DNA of 63,027 nt, filler included, from Octopus bimaculoides (lineage: Eukaryota): assembly GCF_001194135.2 (NCBI RefSeq). It is 4 parts of 3 records of this genome, joined end to end, with 100 filler letters (N's around TTAATTAATTAA, not from the genome) between each part and the next. Parts side by side here need not be neighbours in the genome. Positions count along the whole stretch, not along the records: positions 1 to 17,062 come from NC_068984.1; positions 17,163 to 40,227 come from NC_068982.1; positions 40,328 to 60,590 come from NC_068981.1; 1 more part is not named here. One strand, given 5' to 3'. Position numbers and translations under genes: made by a program. Within the stretch, counting starts at the first letter, position 1. Every line of letters starts with the position of its first letter. The notes beneath the pieces were generated by a model. That model saw only the letters and a list, made by a program, of their open reading frames with translations. It was not told the origin of the DNA and searched no databases. Positions 13,124-55,830 of this stretch are shown piece after piece.

Positions 13124-13193
13124 ATCCCTGATGAACTGGTTCATGAAAAATATGACAGTGTTAAGCAAGACTTATTGAAACAGCTGTAGGAAT
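13124..13193 (+). ncRNA. Type I hammerhead-ribozyme-like motif (PLE-type, palindromic stem III)
   Basis: ATCC-CTGATGA(13128)-long stem II region-GAAA(13177)-CAGCTG-TA-GGAAT; predicted cleavage GUA after 13188. Confidence 0.65.
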
Positions 13194-13269
13194 GAATAGT
13201 TTGATATATCACTGACATTGTTTTGTGTTTCTCTTTCATATATATGATATCGTCATATTAGATCGTTGA

Positions 13270-13450
13270 ACTCTGCACATTTTTCTCTCTCCGCTTCCAC
13301 CCCCCACCTTTTTATTTCTTTCTGCTGAAGGGCGTAGGCTCGAAACGTAAAAGACTTTTCCATTCTTCCCGAGCGTTAAACTAATACAGCTGCTCGTTTT
13401 TCTTACACTACACCTGCCTTCGTCTTTTGTTTTCTGTAAATTTGAGCTGT
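13270..13450 (+). mobile_element. PLE terminal-repeat-like element with hammerhead variant at 13318-13353
   Basis: CTTT-CTGCTGA-A-GGGC GTAG GCTC-GAAA-CGTA-AAAG; flanks homologous to the minus copy at 15172-15290. Confidence 0.65.
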
Positions 13451-13799
13451 GTGCGCGCGTGTATGTGTATATGTAAACAGGACGGCCACAATTGGTTTAC
13501 TTGTTAAGTCAGGCTTACGCTAATACGAAAGAATATGAAGCTCCATTTGTGTGAAAGTAAAATCTCAACATATAGTGAGGCATTACGTAGACACAGTTCA
13601 TGTGAAATATCTTTTTAACAAAAAGTGGAATCTGCGATAGTTAGCTCCCCTAGATGTGCTATATGTTTCCCTTCGTCAGAACAACCAATGGTAATTCCTT
13701 GTTATTAACTACTTCATTAATTGCTTCTTGCCAAGGAAACGAAGACATGTTACATGAAACAATAGACAGATAGATAGGGAGTGGAACTAGTGTTTAGGA

Positions 13800-14050
13800 G
13801 TGTTGCAATCACGATGGTGAGACTGTGGTTAAGATTCTTTAAGCGGCTGCGGGTTGTCTTCTTGAGCCAAATGTGTATTTCAGGTTGCACCAGTCCGATC
13901 GACAGTAAATGGGTAACCTTTTGACGAATTGGACCTCCGATCAGATGGGAATGCTGGCCTACTCCTCTAGCCAGCAGGGTACCATCATTCGAAGGCTAAA
14001 AACGATGTGAAGTGTACTGTGACCAGCGATAACCTAGTGGGTACCGTGAT
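13800..14050 (+). mobile_element. Decayed SINE with family D/E-like body and a third tail type
   Basis: TTGTCTTCTTGAGCC...TATTTCAGGTTGCACCAGTCC...GTAAATGGGTA resembles the D/E body; downstream sequence differs from the C/D and E tails. Confidence 0.5.
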
Positions 14051-14194
14051 ATATAAATATATATTTGCAGTATATGATATAAGTTCAGAGAATTATGTGG
14101 CTATCACATACAAGTATGTATATGTGTGTGTGTGTGTGTGTGTGTGTGTGTGTGTGTGTGTATTTATATGCAAGTATGGTCTATTGTTCTTTTT

Positions 14195-14388
14195 TCTTTT
14201 ATTTGTTTCAGTCATTTGACTGCGGCCATGCTGGAGCACCACCCTTAGTCGAGCAAATCGACCCCAGGACTTATTCTTTGTAAGCCTTAGTACTTGTTCT
14301 ATCGGTCTCTTTTTGCCGAATTGCTATGTTACGAGGACGTAAACATACCAACATCGGTTGTCAAACGATGATGGGGAACAAACACAGA
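14195..14388 (-). mobile_element. Family A SINE 3' half
   Basis: TTTGTTTCAGTCATTTGACTGCGGCCATGCTGGAGCACC...GACCCCAGGACTTATTC. Confidence 0.88.
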
Positions 14389-15171
14389 TATGGTCGATAT
14401 TATATCCTAATGAAACAAGTATACTTGATTCGTGTTTGAAAAGAGGTCCGAATGGTCATAACTGGAAGAGTTTTTCTACCGTAATATTTGTTCAGTAACC
14501 GCTGAACTTGATCTTAACAGTAACAGAAAAACCTATTTTTCGTTGTACTGGCTCTTGGATGATTTGAACTCAGAGCGAGCTTACTCTAGTTGCTGACATT
14601 ATGCCACTATTTTTCAGGGTTTAACCAATACACTGATTGCTGTTGATGACGTAATAAAGAGATTAACAGAGTAGATTTAATCAAACCTCCGTCCGTTCTC
14701 ACTTCTCCTTTGATTTGTAACACCCAAATTTAATCTCCCAAACACACAAACGTAAAAATACAAACGTATGCATAATTCATAAACTGCACATAATAATGCA
14801 TCTCGCTCTATCTATGTACATACAATATGCGTGGCACTGGCTGCATGCTGAATGTGCATCGGCATTTCTTTGGTGCCAACATGCTTTCAGAAGCCGTAGG
14901 TGCCGTCTAGCATGCCAGCATTATCTGCCAATATTGTTAGGAAATATTAGCATATTGTCTTGACAATGGCACTATTAAAGTTTACCATATATTAGTGTGG
15001 AAGTCAGTGGTAACTTATTTAATAAATGGAACATTGCAAAGGTAACTAGGAATGGATATGATATACAGACAGGTATATATACGTACATGTGTGTCTGTGT
15101 GCGTGTATATATATATATATATATATATATATATATATATATATATATATATATATATATATATATATAGT

Positions 15172-15300
15172 GAGAATTTAAAAAGGACGGGTGTGTAAAC
15201 AACAAACAGATGTATTAGTTTAACGCTCGGGAAGTGAGAAAGTCTTTTACGTTTCGAGCCTACGCTCTTCGACAGAAAGGAACACAGAAATACCAAAAAG
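15172..15300 (-). mobile_element. PLE terminal-repeat-like element with hammerhead variant at 15244-15279
   Basis: Minus: CTTT-CTGTCGA-A-GAGC GTAG GCTC-GAAA-CGTA-AAAG-ACTTTCTCACTTCCCGAGCGTTAAACTAATAC. Confidence 0.68.
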
Positions 15301-53030: not shown

Positions 53031-53205
53031 TAAGGTGGCGAGCTGACAGAATCGTTAGCGCGCTAGTCGAAATGTTTAACTGTCTTTCGCCCGTCGCTAC
53101 GTTTTGAGTTCAAATTCCCTCGGGGTCGACTTTGCCTTTCATCCTTTCAGGGGTCGATAAATTAAGTACCAGTGAAAGACTGGGGTCGATGTAATCGACT
53201 ACTCA
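53031..53205 (+). mobile_element. Nin/Deu-domain SINE
   Basis: GGTGGCGAGCTGACAGAATCGTTAGC...GTCGACTTTGCCTTTCATCCTTTCAGGGGTCGATAAATTAAGTACCAG. Confidence 0.88.
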
Positions 53206-53813
53206 CATTTAGACAGTCTTTCTCTTCTTTTTTGTTCTCGTCCTTTTTTAAGAACACATTTTTCTCGAGTAAAGTTCACAATTTTTTCCTTTTCTTCTTT
53301 TTCAAAAATGTTCATAATAAATTAACTACCTTTTTCCTGAAATTCTAGATGATTGTAACGGCTATGAAAAAATATCAATGTTAGTTTATTGTTGCGTTTG
53401 GGTAAGTCTATGTCTGTATTATTAGACAATTGCAAAGACGAAAAAATTGGTAAACTCTGCAAAAATCCGGTACAAATTCCTCATGGGGCAAAATGTTGCT
53501 TACTTTTTCTCAACCTGATATACCGGCGGCGTCGGAAATGGAATGTGTGGCCCGTTTTGTTGCAGCACCAGTGATGCGAACCCTAATTAGAACTTTCCAG
53601 ATTGTTCACTAAATCCTAATTCAGTTGACTTCCAGAATGGCCACTAGCCTTCTGATACCATTATCGTGAATTCACAGTTTAATTGTTATTTAAATCAGTT
53701 AACGCCGTAGATACTATAATTATTGAAACTGTAACCACAAATTCATTTATGCTGCTATATTTGCTGTGTTTATTAATATTAATGAACAAATCTGCATACA
53801 ATGAGTCGCTGAA

Positions 53814-54850
53814 TGTTAGGACTTCAAATGAGATCCTTTAGTTACATACGTCAAGACTTGTGTGGGAAGGATATTTTTCAGATTAATAAACAAGCACTTC
53901 ACACAGGCACACAGATACAAGCATTTATTCAACAGGCACAAACTAAGGGTCTCCCTTAGTTGGGCACTCAACATAAAAGGTATTTCAAATAACATACGCA
54001 AAACAAGAGAGGAGGCAGGTTGCTCTTGCAGGTTGTACAATAACTGTCCAAGAGGGGCCGACGCGAGACCGACGCGAGGCCGACGCGAGGCCGACGCGAG
54101 ACCGACGCGAGGCCGACGCGAGGCCGAAGAAGTCATCTATGAGCCTACGGTGACACCTAGACATGGTAACTACATTACCGGCAATGTGCAATTCAACAAC
54201 CATGGTAGCAGAATCACCAGCTCTAACGCCGTTGAACCTAGTGCAAACTCCACAGCCAGAGACGATGTCCAGTCCGGTACTAAGTACACAGAGGAGGTAA
54301 CGTAACGGACGACCCCAGTCCCGTCGCCGCAGCCAGATACAATGAGCAGACTAATATCATCGACACCGTGGAAGTAACCGACCCCGCACCCTATGTTACC
54401 CGCAGCGGCACCCATACCACCGCTGGCATCATCAGCACCAACCTTACCAGTACCGCCGGACCAATGCGCCATGATGACAACATCAGCACGGTGACACGAA
54501 CAACATTCCCAGGCCCGGAGCCTACCACAGATACACCAGGGATGTGAATATAGCTAGCACCCAAGCCTGTAAATATATTGGATCGGCCAACACAGCTTTC
54601 AAGCCACGTTTCTGCAACAACCAGTCATCCTGCAGAGCACCAAAAAGACGGTTTTTCACGTCCCTCGCCAGCAATGTGTGACACCTCAAAGATCGAGGGT
54701 CCCCATATGATATCAGGTGGAAGTTCATGGAACGTCCTGGCCCATATATTGATGGGAGCACTCGCTGCAAATCTGTCGCAGAGCGAACCAAAATTCTTTA
54801 AAACCATGTGAAGCCTGGCGCATAAAATAATCGTAAAGATATTTTCTCAA
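53814..54850. mobile_element. Unclassified GC-rich block with LTR-like terminus
   Basis: Abrupt GC rise; minus strand ends AATAAA...GTCCTAACA (TG...CA-type end at 53814); no recognisable gag/pol motif. Confidence 0.4.
54057..54127 (+). repeat. 11-bp minisatellite (R)CCGACGCGAG x6 plus partial unit
   Basis: First base of successive units runs G,A,G,G,A,G,G, giving a 33-bp higher-order period. Confidence 0.95.
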
Positions 54851-55283
54851 AGTGTGTACATTTCAAGTGCTACCTACTAGAAAACTGGGTCTCCCCGTTT
54901 GCTGTTTAAGCTAGTATAAAACCTTAATGAAATAAATCCTTTGTGTAGCTGTGTAAATATTGAGTGAAAAATATATCTACATACACATATATATATACTT
55001 ATGTGTACGTATGCATTTATGTATACACTATACACAAATATACACACACACACACACACACACACACACACACACACACACACACAGACACACACACACA
55101 CACACGCATATATATATCATATTGCTTCCTAACCACTTGCTTCTATTTACCTTCCATTCATCCTCTGGTGCATGGGTAGATAACCCCTTCTCAATAACCT
55201 TTTTCTCTGTTAGACGTTTGAACATTTTGTCCTTGCGTTATCTCCGCGTTCGCTGGGTGAAAAGTTTAATTTGTCTTTGTAAA

Positions 55284-55344
55284 AAGTCTGATGAGCAGTG
55301 CACAAGGCTGTAGCTTTCGTAGATACGAAACAATTGGTTACTCT
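55284..55344 (+). ncRNA. Weak hammerhead-like candidate
   Basis: AAGT-CTGATGA-G...C-GAAA-CAATTG-GTT-ACT; stem II poorly supported. Confidence 0.3.
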
Positions 55345-55464
55345 ATGACCAGGATTTAACTTTAGTAATTTAATACTTACTGCTCTATTCTTTATAGCGT
55401 GTGCTTCTTATTCTGATATATGTTATATTGACAATATATATATATATATATATATATATATATA

Positions 55465-55625
55465 TTCTTTTATTTGTTGCAGTCCTTTGACTGCAGCCAT
55501 GGTGGAGCACCGCCTTTAGTCGAACAAATCGTTCCCAGGACTCATTCTTTGTAAGCTTAGTACTTATTCAGCTTCTTTTGCTGAACTGCAAAACGATGGG
55601 AGTGTGGGGAACAAACACAGGCACA
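55465..55625 (-). mobile_element. Family A SINE 3' fragment
   Basis: TTTGACTGCAGCCATGGTGGAGCACCGCCTTTAGTCG. Confidence 0.82.
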
Positions 55626-55649
55626 CAAACATATATATATATGGTAAAT

Positions 55650-55830
55650 CTCCCAAAATGGAAGAACAAACACAAGGAAAAAAGCAACAACGCGACGGCG
55701 TAGTACATGCAAAGTATTAAAAGACGCTCAGGGAAGGAAAGAAAGGAAGTTTTTATGTTCCGAGCATAGCTCTTCTTCAGAAACAGGAGACGGAGGAAAT
55801 CCAAGAGAAAAGGAAGATGGAGGAACAACA
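55650..55830 (-). mobile_element. PLE terminal-repeat-like element with decayed hammerhead at 55749-55784
   Basis: Minus: GTTT-CTGAAGA-A-GAGC TAT GCTC-GGAA-CATA-AAAAC; related to the 13318/15244 family. Confidence 0.58.

What the first reader, a model, noticed from the sequence alone, without database searches (positions are those of the whole stretch)
13124..55784. A collection of diverse minimal hammerhead-ribozyme-like motifs from several repeat families in one 63-kb window
Seen: about eight CUGxxGA...GAAA-(palindromic stem III)-UH motifs, at 13124(+), 13318(+), 15244(-), 38798(-), 43016(-), 51686(-), 55284(+, weak) and 55749(-). Stem III is ACGT, CAGCTG, CAGATG or CAATTG, and several carry an extra A between A9 and stem II. 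Established: PLE terminal repeats carry minimal type I hammerheads with palindromic stem III that cleave as dimers. Inference: this genome holds several hammerhead-bearing PLE or non-autonomous families, only one of which (38.8 kb) is next to PLE coding sequence here, so some may be retrozyme-like non-coding retroelements.
Basis: partly seen in the sequence, partly recalled or inferred. Interest (0 to 1): 0.72.

Follow-up and report, generated by a model that had tools for sequence, protein, structure and literature searches.

The report
Penelope retroelement stubs carrying hammerhead ribozymes
The eight ribozyme-like motifs are real but mostly damaged, and most are the cut-short tail ends of several known-type Penelope-like jumping genes; two details stand out: the commonest lineage examined has swapped a normally fixed ribozyme letter, and another has a tRNA-like front end that likely starts its own short RNA.

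Summary
All eight motifs exist and belong to repeat families; a ninth (12255) was missed. None is an intact canonical hammerhead and the excess over shuffles in the window is modest, but six of eight family majorities pass a minimal type I hammerhead descriptor, with different, complementary stems. No array of three or more copies was seen in 345 loci, so retrozymes are not supported. This is the known hammerhead-in-pLTR design. Two details are less ordinary. (1) In the 13322/15275 lineage only 880 of 9,012 exact genomic matches keep core A6; most listed carry U6, including a young subfamily, which suggests cleavage is weak, assisted or dispensable. (2) The 38.8-kb family has a tRNA-like head where 41 of 75 sampled copies begin, ten times the flanking rate, likely a polymerase III start. 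The scan noted this head before on other DNA (unreviewed). Cleavage and promoter activity are untested.

The parts
12185..12395 (.).
   Evidence: family joined to RT, linker and GIY-YIG in L374, L376, L378, L389, L390
13124..13258 (+). Family C: old repeat with canonical core (C3 at 13128), long decayed stem II, 8-nt palindromic stem III; no coding link found
13260..13450 (+). Family A pLTR end; hammerhead C3 at 13322, position 6 is C here (U in the family)
   Evidence: RT and GIY-YIG-type sequence upstream in L177, L178
15170..15487 (-). Family A (subfamily A2) partial tandem: piece of the region that follows the pLTR, then a 5'-truncated pLTR; hammerhead C3 at 15275 equals the family majority (U6)
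38756..39710 (-). Family B sense arm: broken GIY-YIG end (about 39230-39710), tRNA-like head (about 39100-39165), inserted LINE 3' end, (AAT)n, hammerhead (C3 at 38833) whose 3' arm of stem I is deleted
   Evidence: RVT_1 in family copies L269, L281
39707..40012 (+). Family B inverted arm ending inside the tRNA-like head (A box at about 39970, no B box, no hammerhead)
42961..43073 (-). Family D pLTR-like end, old; canonical core (C3 at 43044), one mismatch in stem II
   Evidence: weak GIY-YIG-end similarity in L086, E 0.02-0.06
51622..52063 (.). Family E fold-back: minus-strand arm with hammerhead (C3 at 51730; family U4C, this copy further damaged at G5, stem I and stem III) and plus-strand arm ending inside loop II (52039)
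   Evidence: GIY-YIG upstream in L110, L114, L115/L184
53850..55449 (+). Family F 5'-truncated element: RT-EN linker and GIY-YIG remnants (53850-54916), 3' UTR, hammerhead with canonical core (C3 at 55288), 7-bp family stem I and bulged stem II
55631..55821 (-). Family H pLTR end, canonical-core sister of family A; this copy (C3 at 55780) has two lesions in the GAAA/stem III strand
   Evidence: GIY-YIG and linker upstream in L480, L487, L498

Best explanation
The motifs are damaged minimal type I hammerheads in the short 3' ends that several Penelope-like retrotransposon lineages have left across this genome, likely by target-primed reverse transcription that usually stopped early. Shown: six lineages (A, B, E, F, G, H) run upstream into RT and/or GIY-YIG coding sequence in their longer copies; the hammerhead sits roughly 60-130 nt from the 3' end; copies are mostly single or head-to-head and often end in (TA)n. 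Inferred from published PLE work: a pLTR-ORF-pLTR transcript is bound by the RT-endonuclease, which nicks AT-rich DNA and starts cDNA inside the RNA, so the ribozyme is copied with every stub; in the source RNA the ribozyme would cleave slowly as a dimer through the palindromic stem III or with help from the protein. The window copies themselves are predicted to be inert passengers. Inferred: in lineage A cleavage is weak or dispensable, since U6 replaced core A6 and the lineage went on expanding; in lineage B many stubs likely come from an RNA that starts at a tRNA-like head in the pLTR.
For: Coding links: A, RT and GIY-YIG-type sequence upstream in L177 and L178 and in young copy L526; B, RVT_1 E 1e-10, RT/GIY-YIG atlas clusters 0.96-0.97, head and hammerhead downstream in most of 30 ORF-bearing loci; E, GIY-YIG atlas clusters 0.97; F, in-window remnants; G; H. 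Majority stems differ between families yet pair; A and H swap the outer stem I pair, C-G against G-C. Arrangement in 345 loci: 244 single, 42 inverted, 9 direct pairs, 0 with three or more, 50 no motif called. A 30-nt optional tail is visible at family B 3' ends. These features match PMC4209133, PMC8557442 and PMC11167929.
Against: Family C has no coding link in 16 plus 17 partly overlapping loci and family D only a weak one. No intact full-length element was found; links rest on broken copies. Pfam found nothing for 8 of 10 fragments and only sub-threshold hits for 2, so several links rest on tblastn between my own loci and on motif reading. Few individual copies pass the descriptor in old families (C 0 of 15, D 1 of 24, F 2 of 24). 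Samples are the best-scoring 16-30 loci per query, not random, except those. Clade labels come from motifs; no tree was built.
Confidence: 0.9

Rival explanations
1. Some families are non-LTR retrozymes: non-coding tandem units that are transcribed, self-cleave and circularise.
For: Family C is unlinked to coding sequence; nine loci hold direct pairs; retrozymes are reported to derive from PLE pLTRs and to leave many monomers (10.64898/2026.07.22.740005).
Against: No array of three or more in 345 loci (family C not included); no tandem array covers a motif in the window (minimum score 120); six families join PLE coding sequence; the motifs are of the minimal PLE type.
Confidence: 0.07
2. Family B short copies are made from an RNA polymerase III transcript that starts at the tRNA-like head, so the pLTR doubles as a SINE-like unit copied by the Penelope protein. 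This adds to the best explanation; it does not replace it.
For: A-box and B-box-like motifs at tRNA spacing, aligned to Rfam tRNA positions 8-63 (14.3 bits). 41 of 75 copies at risk begin between about -7 and +12 of the head, 0.036 per base against 0.0034 on either side. None of 26 young copies has TTTT between the head and 60 nt past the ribozyme.
Against: The tRNA match is below threshold (E 3.3; ARAGORN 0 of 10 loci). A 4-bp hairpin lies at the same place and many junctions are snap-backs; a similar hairpin upstream also attracts ends (3 of 19). Family H has an equally sharp 5' end with no tRNA-like head (25 of 30 loci do not continue upstream), so pile-ups are not specific to polymerase III. 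The head is part of ORF-bearing copies, so it is not a separate SINE.
Confidence: 0.45
3. The U6 hammerhead of lineage A still cleaves well in vivo, with help from the PLE protein or another metal ion, instead of being weak or dispensable.
For: Subfamilies differ only at positions that hammerheads leave free (N7 is U, G, C or A; loop II varies; H17 is A, U or C and never G in 47 rows) while stem I is largely kept. A6C is rescued by Mn2+ (PMC7151607); a PLE ribozyme is protein-assisted (PMC11167929).
Against: Changes at position 6 lower activity strongly in Mg2+ (PMC3088659, PMC7151607). The search pattern fixed the rest of the core, so its conservation is partly by construction. Catalytic mutants did not affect insertion in vitro, so cleavage need not be kept.
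Confidence: 0.35
4. The motifs are chance matches in AT-rich sequence.
For: Strict descriptor finds none; two of five relaxed settings are reached by about 10 of 100 shuffles.
Against: Each motif is a diverged copy of a family whose other copies restore the missing pairs; 9,012 and 607 matches against 0 controls.
Confidence: 0.02

Closest known systems
Minimal type I hammerheads in pLTRs of metazoan PLEs (Cervera and De la Pena 2014, PMC4209133; read parts 1-2 of 4 of the text, no supplements)
   Same: Palindromic 15.2-16.2 or small palindromic stem III, extra base between A9 and stem II, G10.1-C11.1 in A, B, D, F, H, several consensus families per genome, mostly single truncated copies, close pairs on opposite strands, a bulged stem II as in D. 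virilis.
   Different: Here U6 (lineage A) and C4 with an A-U first pair of stem II (E, G) are fixed in whole families; the parts read report only the U3-A8 core change. No cephalopod is named in the parts read.
Penelope/Poseidon element PAc of Anolis (Frangieh et al. 2024, PMC11167929; read parts 1-2 of 4)
   Same: Family B: C-terminal GIY-YIG, no visible linker zinc finger, optional 30-nt tail, an open frame running through the hammerhead region.
   Different: Family B has a tRNA-like head and an (AAT)n tract in its pLTR; none is described for PAc in the parts read.
Neptune/Nematis EN+ PLEs (Craig et al. 2021, PMC8557442; Introduction and passages)
   Same: Families A, E, F, G, H show a cysteine motif between RT and EN; A, E, G and H commonly end in (TA)n; inverted 5'-truncated copies.
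   Different: Clade not fixed by a tree; only broken copies seen.
Schistosoma Sm-alpha/Sj-alpha SINE-like elements (as reviewed in PMC6765202; passages only)
   Same: A polymerase III-type promoter together with a hammerhead.
   Different: Those are non-coding repeats that often stand in tandem; here the head is a fixed part of a protein-coding PLE pLTR and copies are single or inverted.
Non-LTR retrozymes (PMC7229834, passages; bioRxiv 10.64898/2026.07.22.740005, part 1 of 5 and passages)
   Same: Type I hammerhead, short unit, PLE ancestry.
   Different: No multimeric arrays seen; motifs are minimal, not canonical; most families keep coding relatives.

Membership tests
EN+ Penelope-like elements | RT followed by a C-terminal GIY-YIG endonuclease upstream of the terminal repeat | tested here: met
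   A, B, E, F, G, H
EN+ Penelope-like elements | Same feature for families C and D | tested here: inconclusive
   D: E 0.02-0.06 in L086; C: none
EN+ Penelope-like elements | pLTR structure: partial tandems, inverted 5'-truncated copies, optional tail | tested here: met
   42 inverted and 9 direct pairs in 345 loci; pLTR followed by coding sequence in A2 loci; two 3' ends in B
EN+ Penelope-like elements | RT groups with PLE RTs in a tree; clade assignment | not tested
   No reference set was on hand; labels rest on the linker motif criterion of PMC8557442
Minimal type I hammerhead | Stems I and II pair; stem III palindromic; H17 not G | tested here: met
   Majorities of A, B, D, E, G, H pass; F with a bulge and C by eye
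Minimal type I hammerhead | Canonical core CUGANGA/GAAA (families B, C, D, F, H) | tested here: met
Minimal type I hammerhead | Canonical core CUGANGA/GAAA (families A, E, G) | tested here: not met
   A has U6; E and G have C4. These are core variants.
Minimal type I hammerhead | Self-cleavage, as dimer or protein-assisted | not testable with these tools
   Only folding energies: stem III self-duplex -1.7 kcal/mol for ACGU, -7.9 and -11.1 for G and E
Non-LTR retrozyme | Head-to-tail arrays of short hammerhead units | tested here: not met
   0 of 345 loci with three or more direct copies; 9 direct pairs; family C not in this count
Non-LTR retrozyme | Abundant circular RNA | not testable with these tools
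   No RNase R or small-RNA data laid
tRNA-derived SINE (family B short copies) | A and B boxes in a tRNA-like head at the 5' end of copies | tested here: inconclusive
   Boxes present, Rfam 14.3 bits below cut-off 29; 41 of 75 ends at the head; hairpin confound
tRNA-derived SINE (family B short copies) | Separate non-autonomous family without its own ORF | tested here: not met
   The head is part of ORF-bearing copies
tRNA-derived SINE (family B short copies) | Transcription by RNA polymerase III | not testable with these tools
   Needs 5'-end mapping or a promoter assay

The most novel reading that the evidence does not exclude
A protein-coding Penelope element has captured a tRNA-type polymerase III promoter in its terminal repeat and sheds its own ribozyme-bearing, SINE-like 300-nt RNA, which its RT copies into the genome; beside it, the most abundant hammerhead lineage examined has spread with U in place of the invariant core A6. 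The probability given is for the promoter part.
Probability: 0.45. Interest if true: 0.7.

Novelty: new variant of a known kind. Interest (0 to 1): 0.45.

Why it matters
The finding as framed is known biology: PLE terminal repeats carry minimal hammerheads and leave many stubs. Two points make an open question testable. It is unsettled whether hammerhead cleavage matters to PLE mobility (PMC8557442, PMC11167929). Sister lineages A (U6) and H (A6) share the fold and related proteins, and the U6 form outnumbers the A6 form about nine to one among exact matches, which gives a natural pair to assay. A polymerase III start inside a pLTR would show how a SINE-like element can arise from, and be moved by, a Penelope element, a pairing that three paper searches did not turn up.

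Tried and rejected
Rfam on the whole window: the best 150 of 348 rows shown were microsatellite-driven (nearly all miRNA models), no hammerhead among them; on a young family B copy no hammerhead family matched. ARAGORN found no tRNA in 10 of 10 family B loci. Pfam was blank or sub-threshold on 10 fragments. Sequencing runs: no RNA holder listed. Raw reads of one unstranded RNA-seq run (X24, about 6 in 100 read) cover families B and A but show no place where many molecules begin or end, neither at the predicted cut nor at the head; such a library cannot show this, and depth falls upstream of the head as DNA copy number does. No other letter at position 6 reached 5 in 100 reads, so editing back from U6 was not seen. 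I noticed one inverted junction at the predicted cut site (L059) but ran no systematic test for a footprint of cleavage. A DNA search with the young U6 subfamily returned nothing, probably because very common words are skipped; a pattern search replaced it. mis-oriented 13 of 30 loci; one search corrected this. Family C coding link: none. Lunse et al. 2017 on small hammerhead variants in PLEs is not held; I know it from memory and its title only, and it or its supplements may already list octopus families or position-6 variants. A paper search for hammerhead plus A6U listed two papers, neither on this by title and abstract start; a search of scan notes found none. No supplements were read.
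Full report
Setting. The window is a pack of four stretches (1-17062, 17163-40227, 40328-60590, 60691-63027) of a 2.3-Gb, AT- and microsatellite-rich animal genome. The motifs lie on contigs C4, C2 and C1, so they are not one cluster. The host is probably an octopus; that label rests on my recall of its SINEs and on earlier scan notes, not on a test.

Observation. All eight motifs are present. A strict descriptor finds none, and five relaxed ones give 2 vs 0.14, 9 vs 5.2, 4 vs 1.8, 3 vs 0.3 and 21 vs 8.9 against 100 local shuffles: an excess, but setting-dependent. 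I therefore searched the genome with each motif and its flanks and aligned the best 16-30 loci per query. The eight motifs fall into seven lineages: A (13322 and 15275), B (38833), C (13128), D (43044), E (51730), F (55288), H (55780). Majority sequences pass a descriptor that allows C4 or U6 in six of eight families; single copies pass in A 17 of 29, B 11 of 29 (young B 22 of 30), C 0 of 15, D 1 of 24, E 15 of 24, F 2 of 24, G 8 of 24, H 10 of 19. F fails on a one-base bulge in stem II; C is old, and its best copy (L429) shows a 5-bp stem I and a long stem II. Stem I is CUUU/AAAG in A, GUUU/AAAC in H, GACAC/GUGUU in B, GUCU/AGAC in E and 7-8 bp in F and G: different letters, kept pairing. Of the window copies only 15275 equals its family majority. 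38833 has lost the 3' arm of stem I by a deletion just after H17 that recurs in other copies.

What the families are. Longer copies run upstream into coding sequence. B: RT (Pfam RVT_1, E 1e-10) and GIY-YIG (atlas clusters 0.96-0.97) with no visible linker zinc finger, so Penelope/Poseidon-like by the criterion in PMC8557442. E: GIY-YIG in L110, L114, L115. F: RT, linker and GIY-YIG in L135/L187, and in the window itself at 53850-54916. G: the same in L374, L376, L378, L389, L390. A: RT and GIY-YIG-type sequence in L177 and L178; in A2 loci coding sequence follows the pLTR. H: GIY-YIG and linker related to A's. A, E, F, G and H carry a cysteine motif before the endonuclease, as Neptune and Nematis elements do. 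D has only a weak match, C none. Pfam alone was nearly blank on these broken fragments. In 345 loci (families A, B, D-H; some overlap, window loci included) 244 hold one motif, 42 an inverted pair, 9 a direct pair, none three or more, and in 50 none was called. This is the picture of truncated PLE insertions in PMC4209133 and PMC8557442, not of retrozyme arrays (PMC7229834; bioRxiv 10.64898/2026.07.22.740005).

Mechanism. Shown: anatomy, coding links, arrangement. Taken from PMC11167929: the PLE protein nicks AT-rich DNA and starts cDNA at two sites inside the RNA, giving an optional tail; the ribozyme cleaved only with protein present, and catalytic mutants inserted normally. Inferred here: most insertions stop within a few hundred bases, often folding back, so each stub carries the hammerhead that lies near the 3' end. 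The four-base stem III of A, B, D and H cannot close as a hairpin and gives a weak self-duplex (-1.7 kcal/mol); E and G give -11.1 and -7.9. Dimer cleavage would need two copies on one RNA or protein help; the single damaged copies in the window are predicted inert.

Core variants. The pattern shared by A and H matches 9,012 times with position 6 free (control 0) and 880 times with A6. Of the first 100 listed, 89 have U6, 2 C6, 9 A6. In 47 sampled rows the subfamilies differ at N7, loop II and H17 (A, U or C, never G) and largely keep stem I; the pattern fixed the rest of the core, so its conservation is partly by construction. One U6 subfamily has 1,607 exact matches to a 27-base marker; 29 of 30 sampled copies have U6, mean identity 98% over 89 bases, and L526 has coding sequence upstream across a gap. 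Changes at position 6 lower activity in Mg2+, though A6C is rescued by Mn2+; U4C, fixed in E and G, is known from a viroid, where it lowers activity in vitro (PMC3088659, PMC7151607; passages). I read U6 as weak or dispensable cleavage (0.65) against assisted full activity (0.35). One paper search and two searches of scan notes did not show U6 in PLEs; Lunse et al. 2017 could not be read and may cover it.

The tRNA-like head. Family B pLTRs hold, in order, a tRNA-like head, (AAT)n, the hammerhead and the tail. The head aligns to Rfam tRNA positions 8-63 at 14.3 bits, below cut-off. A young subfamily has 607 exact matches to its B-box region. From the first 100 listed I held 99 distinct occurrences, dropped 7 as internal deletions or jumps, moved 2 snap-back junctions by hand and used 92. 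41 of 75 at risk begin between about -7 and +12, 0.036 per base against 0.0034 upstream and downstream. None of 26 young copies has a TTTT terminator. Against: a 4-bp hairpin sits at the same place, a similar hairpin upstream takes 3 of 19 ends, and family H has a sharp 5' end without any such head. RNA reads could not decide. I give a polymerase III start 0.45. Three paper searches listed no PLE with such a head; Schistosoma SINE-like elements combine a polymerase III promoter and a hammerhead (PMC6765202, passages). Eight earlier, unreviewed scan reports describe this or a similar head on other DNA; I had stated my reading before seeing them, and they are not independent support. A recent octopus repeat annotation counts Penelope families and has no occurrence of the word ribozyme in its main text (PMC13282606, passages).

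Verdict. Observation partly confirmed; interpretation partly supported. A known design, here with two variants worth a bench test. Novelty: new variant of a known kind. Interest 0.45.

Noticed in passing
window 25813-26310 (-): Exon of a rhodopsin-family GPCR (Pfam 7tm_1, E 2e-21); it looks tachykinin-receptor-like, a label from memory.
   Followed up: partly
window 38885-39085 (-): 3' end of a LINE-like element inserted into the (AAT)n tract of the family B pLTR; resembles Dong/R4 (recalled, not tested); also seen in L038 and L043.
   Followed up: partly
window 24451-24966 (-): Mariner-like transposase fragment (HTH_48, HTH_32).
   Followed up: partly
window 44803-45835 (+): Pogo/Tigger-like transposase remnants (CENP-B_N, DDE_1).
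   Followed up: partly
window 47249-47677 (-): Fragment that reads like a LINE reverse transcriptase; no Pfam hit.
   Followed up: partly
window 54056-54127 (+): GC-rich 11-bp tandem repeat (6.5 copies) inside the family F coding remnant; family F also has a long Thr/Asn-rich stretch within the endonuclease region.
   Followed up: no
L393-L422: Family H copies share a sharp 5' end about 95 nt upstream of the ribozyme, mostly preceded by (TA)n; it may mark a pLTR transcription start.
   Followed up: partly
G000:C1:29323526 and others: A further A6 family with loop II UCC, not represented in the window.
   Followed up: no
L059, about 60 bases upstream of the match: An inverted family B arm begins within two bases of the predicted cleavage site; microhomology makes it ambiguous.
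   Followed up: no
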